Below are positions 5,183-38,539 of a stretch of DNA of 64,000 nt, piece after piece; the first letter of the stretch is position 1, and each line of letters begins with the position of its first letter. Source of the DNA: a virus (taxonomy: Duplodnaviria > Heunggongvirae > Uroviricota > Caudoviricetes > Demerecviridae); IMG/VR virus record IMGVR_UViG_2974606035_000001, positions 3,086 to 67,085 of that record. One strand, given 5' to 3'. The notes beneath the pieces were generated by a model that saw nothing but the letters and a program-made list of their open reading frames with translations, made no database searches and was not told the DNA's origin. Both the position numbers and the translations under genes were made by a program.

Positions 5183-5340
5183 ACCGCGCCCGCGATGGTT
5201 AGCCTGCTAATGGTTAGGGTGTTACGTGTCGCCTTGTGTGATCGTTAGCTCGCTAACTAATTTTCAAGCCTCCTCCAATTTTGCCCTTGTTTTAGTCTAG
5301 GACGTTTTAACGCTATATTAGAACTATTCACTGCGTAGGA

Positions 5341-5381
5341 ATACTGTATAAATATACAGTAGGATAAGCTGTGGATAAGTC
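5341..5381. repeat. right arm of long inverted repeat: LexA-type box TACTGTATAAATATACAGTA + DnaA boxes (GGATAAG, TGTGGATAAG)
   Basis: reverse complement of 3591-3628. Confidence 0.6.
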
Positions 5382-5442
5382 TGTTAATAACGCCTCAAAA
5401 TGGCTAGGATTCTGTCAAGTCAAATCGTGCTGTTAATAAGTC

Positions 5443-5452
5443 TGTGGATAAC
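5443..5452 (-). promoter_or_regulatory. DnaA box (TGTGGATAAC)
   Basis: consensus match. Confidence 0.45.
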
Positions 5453-5479
5453 TTAAATAACAGTGTTTCTCACTTCCGT

Positions 5480-5690
5480 TCTTAAATGCGAATTATTATC
5501 ATTTGTATTCCCCTATCTAACTAATAATCATTTCACTTCCTGAATAATTTTCATTCCACTTTTTAAATAAGAATCATTCCACTTTTTAAATGATAATGAT
5601 TCTCATTTCACTTTCTAAATGCGAATCATTATCATTCTCATTCCGCTTTTTAAATGAGAATGATTCTTATTATCATTCGTATTTAGCGCA
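5480..5690. repeat. about 5 direct copies of ~20-bp unit TTTAAATG(N)GAATCATT..TCAT
   Basis: read directly: cttaaatgcgaattattatcat / tttaaataagaatcattcc / tttaaatgataatgattctcat / tctaaatgcgaatcattatcat / tttaaatgagaatgattcttat. Confidence 0.6.
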
Positions 5691-5718
5691 GGGCAATTGC
5701 CCTGCGCTTTTGTGCAAA
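5690..5718 (+). terminator. 22-bp perfect palindrome GCGCAGGGCAATTGCCCTGCGC followed by TTTTGTG
   Basis: hairpin + T-run on plus strand. Confidence 0.5.
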
Positions 5719-6447
5719 TCCGACATTGCTCCACGGGTGTTACGCGTGGGCGTGTATGTGCAAATCCGACAATTTTTGGTAGTGTGCAAATCCGACCCGA
5801 AAAATTTTTATAGTGTGCAAATCCGACAATGAATTTTCCCAAAAACTCCAGCAATCCGATGCTGCGCATCAATCCTGTGGAATTAGCTAGAATATGTGCA
5901 GATCCGACATGGGTTTATTTGTGCGAATCCTACAAGATTTTTGTGACTTCGATTGGAGGGTGTGTGATTGTGTGAGTTTGGGGAGAAGTTGAGAGATCGA
6001 GAGAAATTTGAGGGAACTGCGAGAGGGCCGCATGTTTGGTGCGGAGCACCTGATTTGCGGGGATTTTGGGGAAGAGTTGAGAAGATTTGGGTTAATTTGA
6101 GATAAGTGCAGATAAAGTAAAATTTTATTAGCTAAATAGGGCAAAATAGCTTGACAAGCGAAAATTCTTGTGGCTCTAAAAACTCAGGCAATCATGGGCC
6201 TTCGGCCCGAAATAATGCTGCCATTTTCAGGAGATTATATGCCCATGAAAACTTAGGCAATTGTGCAAATCCGACCAGTTTTTAAATTTATGTCAGTGTG
6301 CAAATCCGACAGTAATTTCTGGAAATGTGTTTTGGAAAAATGTCTCCTAGAAATAACCGCCCTCCCCATAACCGCCCTGTATAGGAAAACCGGCCTAGGA
6401 TATTTATAGCAGGAGAGAAACTGCCCTAGAACATGTGCAAATCCGAT
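5711..6447. repeat. array of ~9 dispersed direct copies of TGTGCAAATCCGAC(A/C) motif (5711, 5756, 5783, 5813, 5895, 5920 degenerate, 6262, 6297, 6434)
   Basis: seen directly; irregular spacing 25-340 bp; an extra copy lies inside CDS at 9046-9060. Confidence 0.7.
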
Positions 6448-6857
6448 TTAAAGTTTAGTGTAAACTCTAGAGTTAGTGTTCAACTATTCCTAGAAACTTA
6501 GGAGTCTAGAAGAAAGTGTTGTGCCATCCTAGCAGAAGAGCGGCAACCGGTGTATCATCTTGAACACAGATATTGCCTTTAAATATTTTTTAGTTATTTA
6601 AAAGTAAATATACCCCCCATTTCATGAGAGTTAGCCCCTCTAGGCGCGTGCGATTTGATACATCCTCCTAAGTCTCGGTGTGGAAGAACAATTGACGAGA
6701 ACCTGCGAACAGAACCGTCATCAAGTGTTTTCCTACGAGGAATGATGTAAATCTACGGCCTAGAGGTAAAAACAAGTTGATGTTTTTAATCTATGAGATT
6801 ATTATAACACATTATTCTCACGAATGTCAAGCAGATTTCGTTATTTTTAAATTTTCG

Positions 6858-8304: not shown

Positions 8305-8789
8305 ATATCATCCGCCTGTCCACTAGCTGTTGCTGCTAATCTTCTTTCACGTTTCAAGATACCATTAATAATATCTTTTGCATCAGATTTATTTTTGGCT
8401 GTTTTCTTTATTAGATCAAATAAGACTCTCGGATTAGGAACCTCAAACTCTTCCTCTCCCAGACATATAGTATATTCTTTCAAATGTAATTGAGTATATT
8501 TAGTAAGTGGGAAAGACTCTAGTATTCCCGTACTATCAACAGGAATATGTTCTTTCATAGGAACCACTGCACATTTCTGTTCTTTTAAGAAATTTAGGAA
8601 TCCAATAGTTTGGACATCTTCTGAATCATAAGAAACTTTTCTGATAGCTTCAATAAGAGTAATAGCTTCAGAAGTTAGTACAGTTAGATAACGCCGTACA
8701 TTAGAACCATCAGTTATTTGTAGAAAGTAAACCGACGAGTCCTCCGTCGGTTCAAACAGTATATTAGCGAATTTAAATGCTTCTCTCAT
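8301..8789 (-). CDS. hypothetical protein (162 aa)
   Basis: ORF track; ATGA overlap. Confidence 0.5.
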   Translation of the reverse strand: MREAFKFANILFEPTEDSSVYFLQITDGSNVRRYLTVLTSEAITLIEAIRKVSYDSEDVQTIGFLNFLKEQKCAVVPMKEHIPVDSTGILESFPLTKYTQLHLKEYTICLGEEEFEVPNPRVLFDLIKKTAKNKSDAKDIINGILKRERRLAATASGQADDI

Positions 8790-9394
8790 TAATTACCTCT
8801 CTTATCTTCATTAATGACAGCTCCTAACGCCTCCATAATAGCATCCTCTAAACTTCCATGTTTACTAGGATTATTAAAATGAGTAGTACAAACAGAACTC
8901 CTAGAAACTCCAGCATCCGCAGGTGCTACGCTTCGCATATCAGACTCAAAAGCTTCTTGAGTATGTTTCAACTGTACAGAAGGGCCATAATCTTCCACAA
9001 ACTTATATGACTGCGTACTACTTACTACACCACCACAAGGAACATTGTGCAAATCCGATGATTTATTTAGCATTGCGATTGGTCCGGACGGCCATGAATC
9101 TCGAATAGTTACTGGAGCACTAGGACGATTTACCTCAGTCTTCACGAGTTTGTAACCAGCGTCGATTAATGCGTTAATTAGATTATCAGCTGGGATGCGA
9201 GCCTTACCAAAAATCTCACGAGCGTTGTTGAGCCTACCTTCAAAACCTTTACATGCTCTAATATTAGTGTGTGCAAAGGTTAGCTTCATAGATTTGAACT
9301 GTACAGTGGCAGTTAAATCTTTAAAGCTATAATCCCACGTATTCAGTTCATGGTCTGGTACTACTTGAATAGATTGTTGTGTATTAAAAGTCAT
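8789..9394 (-). CDS. hypothetical protein (201 aa); contains a TGTGCAAATCCGATG repeat copy
   Basis: ORF track. Confidence 0.5.
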   Translation of the reverse strand: MTFNTQQSIQVVPDHELNTWDYSFKDLTATVQFKSMKLTFAHTNIRACKGFEGRLNNAREIFGKARIPADNLINALIDAGYKLVKTEVNRPSAPVTIRDSWPSGPIAMLNKSSDLHNVPCGGVVSSTQSYKFVEDYGPSVQLKHTQEAFESDMRSVAPADAGVSRSSVCTTHFNNPSKHGSLEDAIMEALGAVINEDKRGN

Positions 9395-9579: not shown

Positions 9580-9812
9580 TATTTAATTCCCATGTAACGT
9601 TTGAGATATACGATGAAGTCTTCCGCTGTATGCTCTACGCTACCTTGAGCTACGAATAGCTTGAGAGCTTCACGTTGTAGGTTAAGCCTAGCCTTTTCAC
9701 CACGTAGTTTTCTGTTATCATCTATAATCCTATTAAGATCACGGGTCTTTTTAACAGATATGCTGATTGCAAATAATAGTGCTATTGCAAGAATAATTAA
9801 TACAATTTCCAC
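9579..9812 (-). CDS. small membrane protein (77 aa)
   Basis: ORF track; TM + basic. Confidence 0.45.
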   Translation of the reverse strand: MEIVLIILAIALLFAISISVKKTRDLNRIIDDNRKLRGEKARLNLQREALKLFVAQGSVEHTAEDFIVYLKRYMGIK

Positions 9813-9837
9813 TATAGTCTCTTTTTATATGTACTCA

Positions 9838-9880
9838 AAAGGCCAGAACAATTAAGTCCTGGCCTCTAGAATTAATGAAG
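9838..9880 (-). terminator. rho-independent terminator (AGGCCAG stem + TTTT on minus)
   Basis: GGCCAGAACAATTAAGTCCTGGCC hairpin. Confidence 0.5.
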
Positions 9881-10309
9881 TTGTTTACCACTTCTTAAAA
9901 TAGTGGCCGTTTCCATAAGATTTAACGTTGTATCACGCTTTTTGATTTGTTTGTCCAGTTCATCGGTACGTTTGCCAATGTAAGCGTTAATAGCCATATT
10001 CATAGCTGAGGCGAGATCTTCTTTGGTTATCTCTTCATCATCTAAAGCTAATTTAGCTAAAGAATCGAAAGTACTAGAAAGTCCTATAAGATCAGAAGCT
10101 TCCCCAGCCAAAATAGGGTTAACATTATCTATTGTTACTTCCAACATAGAGTTAACAATATCTTCTCCGTCTACTAAACCAGATTCAATATTACTCTCCC
10201 ATTCCTTCATCTGCTCCAGCAATGGATTTTTCTTTTCTGTCATGGTAAAGGTTTCCTGTGTCTGTTGGTAAGAAGGACGATTGAGCTTTAGGTGGATGTT
10301 GTTTAGCAA
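9872..10309 (-). CDS. acidic hypothetical protein (145 aa; true start maybe 10243)
   Basis: ORF track. Confidence 0.45.
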   Translation of the reverse strand: MLNNIHLKLNRPSYQQTQETFTMTEKKNPLLEQMKEWESNIESGLVDGEDIVNSMLEVTIDNVNPILAGEASDLIGLSSTFDSLAKLALDDEEITKEDLASAMNMAINAYIGKRTDELDKQIKKRDTTLNLMETATILRSGKQLH

Positions 10310-10652
10310 TCCAGTTAAGAATCAGCACACGACTAGGAACAATATCGGTATTATACCAGAAATCATAAACCCACTGACGAGCATCCTCAAACTTACCAAA
10401 TTTATACGCTTTCTTAAATAATTCAAACCCAAAACAATCCGGTGTAAAGTCTACTTCACGATATTGAACTACTTTAGAACCAGTTAGGTCTTGGATCGCT
10501 GCATTAATTTCTGTATGCGAGAATTTTGTTTCATGAAACTTATTAAAGAATCGGTAGTTGAAGCGTCCGTTCGTTTCGACAAATAACTGGATAAAGAGAT
10601 CGTTAAATTGGTTATCAAACCAGTAATTCTGTAGTTGTTGTAGTGCTGTCAT
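10191..10652 (-). CDS. hypothetical protein (153 aa), aromatic-rich
   Basis: ORF track. Confidence 0.5.
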   Translation of the reverse strand: MTALQQLQNYWFDNQFNDLFIQLFVETNGRFNYRFFNKFHETKFSHTEINAAIQDLTGSKVVQYREVDFTPDCFGFELFKKAYKFGKFEDARQWVYDFWYNTDIVPSRVLILNWIAKQHPPKAQSSFLPTDTGNLYHDRKEKSIAGADEGMGE

Positions 10653-11275: not shown

Positions 11276-11510
11276 CTTTAAGAATATCCTCTACCATATC
11301 ACAAGACTGTTGCAATTCATCAGCAATACGTTTAATATCGGTTTTTGTTACTTTACCAACTAACATCACCAGTAACATAGAAAAGATAATAAGTGGAACT
11401 GGAATAACAAATAAACCTACCTTAACAACATTCTTTGGCGTCCATGTGTGGTATTTAGTAATCAGTACACCAACCACAATTAGATAAAACGCTAGAATAA
11501 ACATCATCAT
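11265..11510 (-). CDS. membrane protein (81 aa)
   Basis: ORF track; two TM. Confidence 0.45.
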   Translation of the reverse strand: MMMFILAFYLIVVGVLITKYHTWTPKNVVKVGLFVIPVPLIIFSMLLVMLVGKVTKTDIKRIADELQQSCDMVEDILKDEA

Positions 11511-11949: not shown

Positions 11950-12245
11950 TATTTCTTACCTTTCAGTTGCTTAACTTCACGCTCAAAGCTAGCTGCTCGA
12001 CGTTCTGCCACTGCTTGATGCTCCTTAGCAAAGCGTGCCTCTTGTTTTGCTAAGTTAAAGGCCATAGCGTTCTTGTTAAGAGAATCATACATCTTCTTCA
12101 ACGCCGGAATAGACATTTTCATCAGTTGCCCCTCAAATCCTTGCATGTCGAGGAGAATTGCTAATACATTGGCCATTTCAGTCTTAGTAAGGTTAGAGGC
12201 GTCGAAGTCTTTAGTCATGTTTTCCATTAGAATTTCCTCTCTCAT
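11949..12245 (-). CDS. hypothetical protein (98 aa), coiled-coil
   Basis: ORF track; promoter+leader consensus upstream. Confidence 0.5.
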   Translation of the reverse strand: MREEILMENMTKDFDASNLTKTEMANVLAILLDMQGFEGQLMKMSIPALKKMYDSLNKNAMAFNLAKQEARFAKEHQAVAERRAASFEREVKQLKGKK

Positions 12246-38050: not shown

Positions 38051-38539
38051 TTACATCTCGGCAAGTTCTTGCTCGGTAATAACTGTGTTACACAATGCAT
38101 CTACAGCTTCATTACCGCTAATACCAGAATGTCCTTTAACCTTAATAAAGGTAGGGTTAGTATTATGAAAGTTGATATACTGCTGCGTTAATTTAAATGC
38201 TTCCTGCCAAAGTTCTAGATTAAGAGGAACTTCACCATCTGCTTTCTTCCAGCCTTTCCTTTGCCAAGAAAACATCCAACTTTCCATGCCATTTTTGCAA
38301 TAAGCAGAGTCAGTATAGATAGCAATTGGTCTATTATCTTTTTTAACAGACCAACGTAGGGCTTCTACGATAGCTGTGAGTTCCATCTCATTATTTGTAG
38401 TTTTAGGATTATAACCAGATTTAGAACCTAAACGATCGTCGTTATCATCATAGACAATAAAACCCCAAGCACCTGGACCTGGGTTAGACTTACAAGCACC
38501 ATCTGTGTAAATGTGGAAAACCGACATTATACCTCCCAA
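38051..38539 (-). CDS. rnh: ribonuclease H (RnhA-like)
   Basis: YTDGAC..NPG...E..A..L...IYTDS...H motif order. Confidence 0.75.
   Translation of the reverse strand: MGGIMSVFHIYTDGACKSNPGPGAWGFIVYDDNDDRLGSKSGYNPKTTNNEMELTAIVEALRWSVKKDNRPIAIYTDSAYCKNGMESWMFSWQRKGWKKADGEVPLNLELWQEAFKLTQQYINFHNTNPTFIKVKGHSGISGNEAVDALCNTVITEQELAEM

What the first reader, a model, noticed from the sequence alone, without database searches (positions are those of the whole stretch)
5711..6447. Array of about 9 TGTGCAAATCCGAC(A/C) direct repeats with irregular spacing, plus one copy inside a downstream CDS (9046-9060)
A 14-15-nt motif is nearly invariant over about 750 bp. All copies are in the same orientation. Spacing is irregular (about 25, 27, 30, 80, 25, 340, 35, 137 bp), so this is not a CRISPR array. 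It looks like a set of binding sites for a sequence-specific protein (phage A2-like DNA-binding protein, or a host factor) in the injection-stop/early control region. The stray copy in the 201-aa gene at 8789-9394 suggests the motif has a function beyond this locus.
Basis: seen in the sequence. Interest (0 to 1): 0.7.

Follow-up and report, generated by a model that had tools for sequence, protein, structure and literature searches.

The report
T5 "direct repeat D" array
The repeated 14-base motif is real, but it is the already catalogued "direct repeat D" of phage T5 and its relatives, a set of probable protein-docking sites around the end of the phage's terminal repeat whose binding protein and function have never been established.

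Summary
TGTGCRAATCCGAC occurs nine times on the + strand at 5711-6447 and once at 9046-9059; chance predicts 0.35 matches in the window.

The window is Salmonella phage SP3, a T5-like phage. In the T5 GenBank record AY587007 the same ten sites, with the same spacing, are annotated "direct repeat D copy 1-10". The feature is therefore already known. No function is assigned in the papers I could read.

Comparison adds these points:
- The site is sharply bounded at 14-15 bp.
- Related arrays occur in a Klebsiella phage and two Vibrio relatives. Spacing differs, and in one Vibrio phage the 3' half of the motif differs too. A Proteus relative has no array.
- The first copy lies 2-3 nt after the conserved first major nick site in four of the five lineages, and 9 nt after a nick-like motif in the fifth.
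- The array sits just inside the right end of the terminal repeat. In three lineages further copies follow that end.
- Clustered copies occur only in T5-like phage DNA.

My best guess is DNA docking sites for a phage protein, possibly the small terminase SciB. That is inference only. Injection-stop control (A2 or a host factor), weak DnaA boxes, iterons and an RNA role remain possible.

The parts
5711..5725 (+). DRD copy 1 (exact). It starts 3 nt after the nick-site homologue CCCTGCGC.
   Evidence: Equivalent to T5 9672-9686.
5757..5771 (+). DRD copy 2 (exact)
   Evidence: T5 9718-9732
5783..5796 (+). DRD copy 3 (exact)
   Evidence: T5 9744-9757
5814..5828 (+). DRD copy 4 (exact)
   Evidence: T5 9775-9789
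5895..5909 (+). DRD copy 5 (1 mismatch, TGTGCAGATCCGAC)
   Evidence: T5 9856-9870
5920..5933 (+). DRD copy 6 (2 mismatches, TGTGCGAATCCTAC). Last copy inside the terminal repeat.
   Evidence: T5 9881-9895
6262..6275 (+). DRD copy 7 (exact). First copy beyond the inferred terminal-repeat end; starts 86 nt after it.
   Evidence: T5 10225-10238
6297..6311 (+). DRD copy 8 (exact)
   Evidence: T5 10260-10274
6434..6447 (+). DRD copy 9 (1 mismatch, ...CCGAT)
   Evidence: T5 10397-10409
9046..9059 (+). DRD copy 10 (1 mismatch), inside the minus-strand 201-aa ORF 8789-9394 (T5 ORF019 family, PHROG 5271, function unknown). It overlaps the codons for S-D-L-H-N.
   Evidence: Those codons show no synonymous variation in 28 distinct homologues, whereas 70% of comparable columns vary. 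T5 12073-12086.
5686..5707 (.). Palindrome GCGCAGGGCAATTGCCCTGCGC (T5 palindrome J). It contains the homologue of T5 major nick site 1 (7.9%).
   Evidence: A GCGC nick-like motif lies 2-3 nt before the first repeat copy in the Klebsiella, Proteus and Vibrio Dax relatives as well, and 9 nt before it in Vibrio D30.
5858..5870 (.). Small hairpin GATGC-tgc-GCATC in the 81-bp spacer between copies 4 and 5.
   Evidence: Read from sequence. The stem differs but still pairs in T5 (GAAC-tgc-GTTC) and in the Klebsiella phage (GCTGC-agc-GCAGC).
5940..6135 (+). G-rich, C-poor tract (C 15 of 196) between the two repeat groups. It holds T5 direct repeat A copies 2 and 3.
   Evidence: G-rich tracts occupy the same position in the relatives.
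6151..6182 (+). Conserved core TTGACAAGCGAAAATTCTTGTGGCTC|TAAAAA. The inferred right end of the terminal repeat falls at 6176|6177.
   Evidence: The T5 left terminal repeat ends at the homologous base. Eight complete T5-like genomes end at ...CTGTGG(C/A)TC. The core is conserved in the Klebsiella phage and in Vibrio phage D30.
6196..6208 (.). GC-rich hairpin GGGCCTTCGGCCC, 20 nt after the inferred repeat end.
   Evidence: Relatives have a hairpin of different sequence at the same place (Klebsiella CACGGTG-aca-CACCGTG; D30 GAGAGC-ttc-GCTCTC).

Best explanation
This is the "direct repeat D" (DRD) family of T5-like phages. It is a set of 14-15-bp asymmetric sites, TGTGCRAATCCGAC(A), all in one orientation. 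The array begins 3 nt after the first major nick site. Six copies lie inside the right end of the long terminal repeat and three lie just beyond it. One further copy lies in a nearby gene.

I read them as DNA docking sites for a phage-encoded sequence-specific protein that builds a multi-site protein-DNA complex at the terminal-repeat boundary. My favoured candidate is the small terminase subunit, the T5 sciB product. In this model it would mark the concatemer for the cut that makes the right genome end. It would also place the terminase nuclease next to the adjacent GCGC nick site.

What is shown:
- identity with T5 DRD;
- non-random occurrence;
- sharp motif boundaries;
- conservation and slow change of the motif across genera;
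- position relative to the nick site and the repeat end.

What is inferred: that a protein binds, which protein it is, and what the complex does.
For: Identity with T5 DRD:
- The T5 record annotates DRD copies 1-10 with the same sequence and spacing.
- All 25 T5-like viral contigs whose fetched DNA covers the region carry the array, and all 27 carry copy 10.

A recognition site rather than drifted sequence:
- The boundary at 14-15 nt is sharp.
- The Klebsiella phage keeps the motif while spacing and copy number change: 5 clear copies plus 1 weak, then 5 more.

A phage-encoded rather than universal host partner:
- The motif shifts to AGGTGCRAATYCGAT in Vibrio phage Dax and to ATGTGCGAAAYCTA / ATGTGCGAATTCAA in Vibrio phage D30.
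- Clustered copies are found only in T5-like phage DNA. The single hit among 185,579 bacterial species genomes is T5-like phage DNA in a metagenome bin.

Link to the genome terminus:
- The T5 repeat ends between copies 6 and 7.
- Eight complete genomes end at the same base, 243-245 nt after copy 6.
- In Dax, eight copies precede the recorded repeat end and two follow it.
- The T5 left end has no copy.

Link to terminase and nicking:
- A GCGC nick-like motif precedes the first copy in all five lineages: by 2-3 nt in four and by 9 nt in D30.
- T5 copies 11-12 lie 368 bp from major nick 4.
- T5 sciB, directly upstream of the large terminase gene, matches the small-terminase family PHROG 3802 at E 6.5e-91.
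- sciA and sciB are reported as the genes responsible for nicking (PMC3517423).

From my own knowledge, not tested here: small-terminase sites in lambda (cosB R1-R3), P1 pac and SPP1 pacL/pacR are likewise several short repeats within a few hundred bp of the cut.
Against: - No binding data exist for any protein.
- Proteus phage Stubb has no array, only one degenerate copy. Yet a related Proteus phage (RP7) keeps a small terminase about as similar to T5's (51.5% over residues 4-105) as the Klebsiella one (52%). Terminase conservation therefore does not track array presence.
- Vibrio phage D30 has no detectable copies beyond the repeat end, so bracketing of the end is not universal.
- T5 major nicks 2 and 3, and other CCTGCGC sites in the window, have no DRD nearby.
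- Copies 10-12 inside genes are not explained by a terminus function.
- Annotated repeat ends differ between records. The Stubb end predicted by PhageTerm coincides with the nick site.
- My assumption that packaging starts at the right end rests on the general rule that the last DNA packaged leaves first. One paper states that the T5 left end is packed first (PMC3517423).
- A2 is conserved to the same degree across these phages and fits the comparative data equally well.
Confidence: 0.35

Rival explanations
1. Injection control. The repeats bind the pre-early protein A2 (with A1) or a host factor. They help to halt DNA entry at about 8% of the genome, or to restart it. One possible mechanism is a ratchet that captures successive sites as they emerge from the tail.
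For: - The array starts about 50 bp to the right of the estimated first-step-transfer shear point (T5 about 9618) in the region proposed to hold the injection stop signal.
- A2 is a DNA-binding dimer needed for second-step transfer.
- A2 homologues occur in the same phages as the array.
- In vitro ejection of T5 DNA pauses near the nick positions, and nick 1 abuts copy 1.
Against: - The sites lie to the right of the stop point, so they would still be outside the cytoplasm while A1 and A2 are made.
- Three copies lie beyond the terminal repeat and others lie at 12 kb and 79 kb in T5.
- Isolated asymmetric sites with irregular spacing are not typical operators for a dimer.
- Stubb has A1 and A2 but no array.
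- Davison's analysis places the stop signal in the inverted repeats and DnaA boxes to the left, not in DRD.
Confidence: 0.25
2. Weak DnaA boxes. The 5' half, TGTGCAAAT, is a near match to the reverse complement of the DnaA box (TGTGNAWAA). The array would extend DnaA binding outward from the perfect boxes 250-350 bp to the left, as in Davison's membrane-DnaA model of the injection stop.
For: - TGTGCAAAT matches the relaxed box at 8 of 9 positions. The D30 and Stubb variants (TGTGCGAAA, TGTGCGTAA) also match at 8 of 9 (my alignment by eye).
- Perfect boxes TGTGGATAA lie at 5370-5378 and 5443-5451.
- Davison describes paired DnaA boxes in this region in 25 phages.
Against: - The 3' half, TCCGAC, is as strongly conserved as the 5' half within T5-like phages and has no role in a DnaA box.
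- About a quarter of copies have G at the position of the critical box T4.
- The Dax variant GGTGCGAAT matches only 6 of 9.
- Spacings of 21-137 bp within the array do not fit the tight phasing of low-affinity DnaA arrays in oriC (my knowledge).
- Within the text held here (figures are not held), Davison's preprint places its eight DnaA boxes in the inverted repeats IRC, IRD, IRD' and IRC' and does not discuss DRD as DnaA boxes.
Confidence: 0.08
3. Iteron-like repeats of a replication element. Together with the DnaA boxes, the AT-rich repeats and the G-rich tract, the array would form an origin-like module. It could be used, for example, to duplicate the terminal repeat during concatemer processing.
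For: - The region contains, in order, DnaA boxes, AT-rich direct repeats and then same-orientation short repeats in two clusters plus outliers.
- This resembles the layout of iteron plasmid origins (my knowledge).
- Davison notes that the region is reminiscent of oriC.
Against: - Electron-microscopy mapping places T5 origins near the genome centre, as reported by Davison.
- The repeats are shorter than typical iterons (14-15 versus 17-22 bp) and are not phased.
- No initiator gene is evident next to the array.
Confidence: 0.1
4. An RNA-level motif. A conserved consensus sigma-70 promoter on the minus strand (6830 to 6801) transcribes leftward into the non-coding region. The RNA would carry GUCGGAUUUGCACA repeats that bind a protein or another RNA.
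For: - The promoter TTGACA-18-TATAAT, preceded by TG, matches 12 of 12.
- It is conserved in the Klebsiella, Proteus and D30 relatives.
- Copies 1-10 all have the same sense relative to leftward transcription, including the ORF019 mRNA.
Against: - T5 copies 11-12 lie in a plus-strand gene, so their transcript carries the opposite sense.
- The motif has no associated conserved hairpin.
- Rfam finds nothing significant in the region.
- Copies 1-6 are about 900 nt or more from the promoter.
Confidence: 0.05

Closest known systems
T5 "direct repeat D" (DRD) of Repeat Region 3. Annotated in GenBank AY587007 (Wang et al. 2005) and discussed by Davison (bioRxiv 10.1101/866236).
   Same: Same motif, same ten copies, same spacing, same position after palindrome J and nick 1 and across the end of the left terminal repeat, and the same stray copy in the ORF019 homologue.
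   Different: Only point differences in individual copies. SP3 copy 6 has two mismatches and copy 5 has one.
Small-terminase recognition arrays: lambda cosB R1-R3, P1 pac hexamers (4+3 around the cut), SPP1 pacL/pacR boxes.
   Same: Several short asymmetric repeats within a few hundred bp of the terminase cut, on one or both sides of it. They would act by assembling a multi-subunit complex that positions the nuclease. This comparison rests on my own knowledge.
   Different: - No binding has been shown.
- T5 makes long exact terminal repeats.
- Copies also occur in distant genes.
- One relative (Stubb) lacks the array.
DnaA boxes and low-affinity DnaA arrays of oriC.
   Same: The 5' half of the motif is one mismatch from the relaxed DnaA box. 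Perfect boxes are nearby, and all copies share one orientation.
   Different: - The conserved 3' half is unrelated to the box.
- Spacing is irregular.
- A critical box position varies.
- The match is weaker in Vibrio phage Dax.
Plasmid iterons (P1, RK2, pSC101 origins).
   Same: Clusters of same-orientation repeats plus outlying copies, next to DnaA boxes and AT-rich repeats.
   Different: The repeats are shorter and unphased. There is no adjacent initiator gene. T5 origins are mapped elsewhere.

Membership tests
T5 direct repeat D (DRD) | Motif TGTGCAAATCCGAC(A) on the + strand | tested here: met
   identical consensus in the window and in T5.
T5 direct repeat D (DRD) | Nine copies with spacing 46, 26, 31, 81, 25, about 343, 35, 137 | tested here: met
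   Window spacings against T5 feature coordinates. The same pattern is seen in the T5-like contigs whose fetched DNA covers the region.
T5 direct repeat D (DRD) | The array starts just after palindrome J / major nick 1 and spans the end of the left terminal repeat | tested here: met
T5 direct repeat D (DRD) | Copy 10 inside the ORF019 homologue | tested here: met
DnaA box | 9-mer matching TTWTNCACA | tested here: not met
   The best copies read ATTTGCACA (8 of 9). Copies with G at motif position 6 match 7 of 9. Dax copies match 6-7 of 9.
DnaA box | Binding by DnaA | not testable with these tools
   Needs a footprint or EMSA.
CRISPR array | Repeats of 23-47 bp with regular spacers of similar length | tested here: not met
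   The motif is 14-15 bp and spacings range from 25 to 342 bp.
Small-terminase recognition array (cosB / pac type) | Several short repeats within a few hundred bp of the terminase cut site | tested here: met
   Copies start 466 to 257 nt before and 86 to 258 nt after the inferred repeat end at 6176|6177. The same holds in Dax.
Small-terminase recognition array (cosB / pac type) | Specific binding by the phage's small terminase, and a requirement for cutting or packaging | not testable with these tools
   Only the existence of a small-terminase homologue (sciB, PHROG 3802) was shown.
Iteron-type origin | Phased 17-22-bp repeats next to an initiator gene | tested here: not met
   The repeats are 14-15 bp and unphased. 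The neighbouring genes have no initiator or DNA-binding family hits.

The most novel reading that the evidence does not exclude
The repeats are loading sites for the T5 small terminase (SciB). One protein-DNA complex would then specify three things: the right genome terminus, the adjacent major nick (7.9% and 99.7%), and possibly the pause in DNA transfer at 8%. That would tie together three long-standing T5 puzzles: the nicks, terminal-repeat formation and the injection stop.
Probability: 0.2. Interest if true: 0.6.

Novelty: already known. Interest (0 to 1): 0.3.

Why it matters
The non-coding region at the end of the T5 terminal repeat has been proposed for decades to hold the injection stop signal. 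None of its repeats has an assigned partner or role.

The array itself is not new. Three results from the comparison narrow the candidates:
- the motif changes slowly between genera;
- it always follows the nick-site motif;
- it sits next to the genome terminus.

Together these point to a conserved phage protein and give a small, testable list: small terminase SciB, A2 (with A1), or DnaA. For annotation, the array is a useful landmark for the right boundary of the terminal repeat, which public records place inconsistently.

Tried and rejected
- Conservation against spacers. In 27 T5-like genomes the whole 5340-6560 region is conserved, so the repeats do not stand out there. The more distant genera were needed.
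- Neighbouring genes. Pfam and PHROGs searches of A2, four early ORFs and three pre-early ORFs gave no informative DNA-binding family apart from the A2 label itself.
- Rfam. Only sub-threshold hits, in the AT-rich repeats to the left of the array.
- Nick sites in general. The other CCTGCGC sites in the window, and T5 nicks 2 and 3, have no DRD next to them, so DRD is not a general part of the nick signal.
- Hit at 38512. It has none of the associated features and was dropped as chance.
- Synonymous-site test on the T5 exo2/D13 pair. Uninformative, because the sequences were selected by the motif and the flanks are equally invariant.
- Resemblance of TGCAAATCCG to a tRNA-Cys anticodon arm, recalled from memory. 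Dropped, because position 6 varies (A or G) and there is no hairpin partner.
- PhageTerm-type repeat ends in other records. They are inconsistent with each other. I used the T5 end and the eight genomes that end at the same base instead.
- Older papers. Davison 2015, Rhoades 1984 and Johnston 1977 could not be retrieved.

Full report
**Observation**

The motif TGTGCAAATCCGAC, allowing up to two mismatches, occurs eleven times in the 64-kb window, all on the + strand. Nine copies lie at 5711-6447, one at 9046-9059 and one weak copy at 38512. Shuffled sequence gives 0.35 matches, and none of 100 shuffles reached eleven. Start-to-start spacings are 46, 26, 31, 81, 25, 342, 35 and 137 bp. The copy at 9046 lies inside the minus-strand 201-aa ORF at 8789-9394.

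**What the window is**

The region is 100% identical to Salmonella phage SP3 (MG387042, genus Tequintavirus). Several hundred T5-like phages match it at 80-95%. In the T5 record AY587007 the same sites are annotated as "direct repeat D copy 1" to "copy 9" at 9672-10409. Their spacing matches the window to within 2 bp. "Copy 10" lies inside ORF019 at 12073. That record also marks three neighbouring features:
- palindrome J;
- "major single-stranded nick 1, 7.9%" at 9661-9668, 3 nt before copy 1;
- the end of the left terminal repeat at 10139, between copies 6 and 7.

Davison's preprint lists "nine DRD repeats" among the elements of Repeat Region 3 but gives them no function. Papers from 2023 and 2026 still describe the region only as non-coding and rich in repeats. 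The feature is therefore known. Its function is not.

**Distribution**

- All 25 T5-like viral contigs whose fetched DNA covers the region carry the array in the same order. All 27 carry copy 10.
- In T5 as a whole, copies with at most one mismatch are the nine array copies, their six duplicates in the right terminal repeat, copy 10, and a tandem pair inside exo2/D13 at 79019 and 79034. All are on the + strand. About 0.04 would be expected by chance. GenBank lists the pair as copies 11 and 12, 368 bp from major nick 4. Twenty viral contigs keep the pair.
- Two copies within 8-38 nt of each other occur only in T5-like viral contigs.
- Among 185,579 bacterial species genomes there is one hit. 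It is a 3-kb contig that is itself T5-like phage DNA.

**Anatomy of the motif**

A profile built from 128 distinct copies shows information content falling to background outside positions 1-15. Position 6 is A or G, and position 15 prefers A.

In the close relatives the whole non-coding region is conserved, so the repeats do not stand out from their spacers. The informative comparisons are the distant ones:

| Phage (genus) | A2 identity to SP3 | Repeat motif | Arrangement |
|---|---|---|---|
| Klebsiella AmPh_EK80 (Sugarlandvirus) | 65% | Same as T5 | 5 clear + 1 weak copy, then 5; different spacing |
| Vibrio Dax (Thalassavirus) | 42% | AGGTGCRAATYCGAT | 8 before the recorded repeat end, 2 after |
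| Vibrio D30 | 42% | ATGTGCGAAAYCTA / ATGTGCGAATTCAA | 6 copies, none found beyond the core |
| Proteus Stubb (Novosibvirus) | 42% | One degenerate copy, TGTGCGTAATCGAC | No array |

A GCGC nick-like motif precedes the first copy in every lineage. It lies 2-3 nt upstream in four lineages and 9 nt upstream in D30.

The 5' half (TGTGCRAA) is the most stable part of the motif. The 3' half changes with lineage. That pattern fits a co-evolving phage protein better than a universal host factor.

**Position relative to the genome end**

Eight complete T5-like genomes in IMG/VR end at ...TTGACAAGTGAAAATTTCTGTGG(C/A)TC, 243-245 nt after copy 6. The T5 record ends at the same place. In the window this puts the repeat end at 6176|6177. 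Copies 1-6 then start 466 to 257 nt before it, and copies 7-9 start 86, 121 and 258 nt after it.

The cut lies in a conserved core, TTGACA-N-TGTGGNTC|TAAAAA, followed by a hairpin. The hairpin sequence differs between genera but still pairs. The T5 left end, and the junction before the right terminal repeat, have no copy. Other records annotate the repeat end elsewhere. The PhageTerm-predicted end in Stubb coincides with the nick site. These annotations therefore need caution.

**Candidate partners**

The T5 gene named sciB lies directly upstream of the large terminase gene. It matches the small-terminase family PHROG 3802 at E 6.5e-91. The Dax homologue is 43% identical. A 2012 paper states that sciA and sciB are responsible for T5 nicking.

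Two observations therefore lead me to favour the small terminase as the partner:
- a small-terminase gene is tied to nicking;
- a repeat copy directly abuts a major nick and the array sits at the genome terminus.

From my own knowledge, arrays of short repeats near the cut are how small terminases recognise DNA in lambda, P1 and SPP1. This remains inference.

Points against it:
- A related Proteus phage (RP7) keeps a similarly conserved small terminase, while Proteus phage Stubb has no array.
- D30 has no copies beyond the repeat end.
- Nicks 2 and 3 have no DRD.
- The same 2012 paper says the left end is packed first, which conflicts with my assumption that packaging starts at the right end.

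**Rivals**

- Injection stop or restart through A2, A1 or a host factor remains plausible. The array begins about 50 bp to the right of the estimated shear point, and in vitro ejection pauses near nicks. However, the sites lie on the side of the stop that has not yet entered the cell, and some copies lie far away in the genome.
- The DnaA reading rests on an 8 of 9 match in the 5' half. It cannot explain the equally conserved 3' half and weakens in Dax.
- An iteron or origin reading fits the layout but not the repeat length, the phasing or the mapped origins.
- An RNA reading is suggested by a conserved consensus promoter that fires leftward from 6830-6801. The opposite transcript sense of T5 copies 11-12 argues against it.

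**Copy 10**

Copy 10 overlaps the conserved peptide S-D-[L/M]-H-N-V. Its codons (TCG GAT xTG CAC AAT GTT) show no synonymous variation in 28 distinct homologues, whereas 70% of comparable columns vary. This suggests constraint on the DNA itself. Two caveats apply. The sequences are related to one another. Also, in about half of them the Leu-to-Met change alters a normally invariant motif position.

**Verdict**

It is the already annotated DRD repeat family of T5-like phages. The specific link to A2 is unsupported. The function is still open. My best guess is small-terminase docking at the terminal-repeat boundary, with about one-third confidence.

Noticed in passing
window 6801-6830 (minus strand): Perfect sigma-70 consensus promoter (TTGACA, 18 nt, TATAAT, preceded by TG) firing leftward into the non-coding region. 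It lies just downstream of the last early gene. It is conserved in the Klebsiella, Proteus and Vibrio D30 relatives. No product is known.
   Followed up: partly
window 6321-6540: CTAG-rich tract: 7 CTAG in 220 bp against 1.0 expected at the window's own rate. Two copies of ATAACCGCCCT lie at 6353-6363 and 6368-6378. CTAG-rich stretches, and in the Klebsiella and Proteus phages the AACCGCCCT element too, recur in the relatives.
   Followed up: partly
window 6500-6560: A very highly conserved non-coding stretch (GGAGTCTAGAAGAAAGTGTTGTGCCATCC...GGTGTATCATCTTGAACAC). On the minus strand it could form a hairpin (GGTTGCC...GGCACAAC). It would lie in the transcript from the leftward promoter and may be a small RNA.
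   Followed up: no
window 5940-6135: Strongly strand-asymmetric tract: G 70, T 59, A 52, C 15 of 196 on the + strand. It lies between the two repeat groups, just before the terminal-repeat end. G-rich tracts occupy the same position in all relatives examined.
   Followed up: no
window 5340-5700: Left of the array lie the T5 IRD'/IRC' elements, with perfect DnaA boxes TGTGGATAA at 5370-5378 and 5443-5451, and AT-rich direct repeats (…CACTTTTTAAATGAGAATCATT…). This is Davison's candidate for the injection stop signal.
   Followed up: partly
L033 1-10 and L034 (right end of T5 AY587007): The two physical ends of T5 DNA share a short inverted similarity: left end TGTCCACTG..., reverse complement of the right end GATCCACAG... 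(TCCAC at positions 3-7 from each end). It may be chance or part of the terminase cut signal.
   Followed up: no
L030 5221-5230 (Proteus phage Stubb, MH830339 record position 11415): The terminal-repeat end predicted by PhageTerm falls exactly at the homologue of the T5 nick site (CCCTGCGC|C). Either nick-derived read starts misled the prediction, or this lineage really ends its repeat there.
   Followed up: partly
L034 17-499 (T5 108016-108498): The gene annotated "SciB protein" (single-chain interruption B) is the small terminase subunit by family match (PHROG 3802) and by its position directly upstream of the large terminase gene. This links T5 nicking genetics to the terminase.
   Followed up: partly
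L078 18519-18548 (T5 79019-79048): A tandem pair of DRD copies lies inside the exo2/D13 (SbcC-like) gene, encoding VQILQVQIRQ. It is 368 bp from major nick 4 and is present in 20 T5-like contigs. It lies outside this window.
   Followed up: partly
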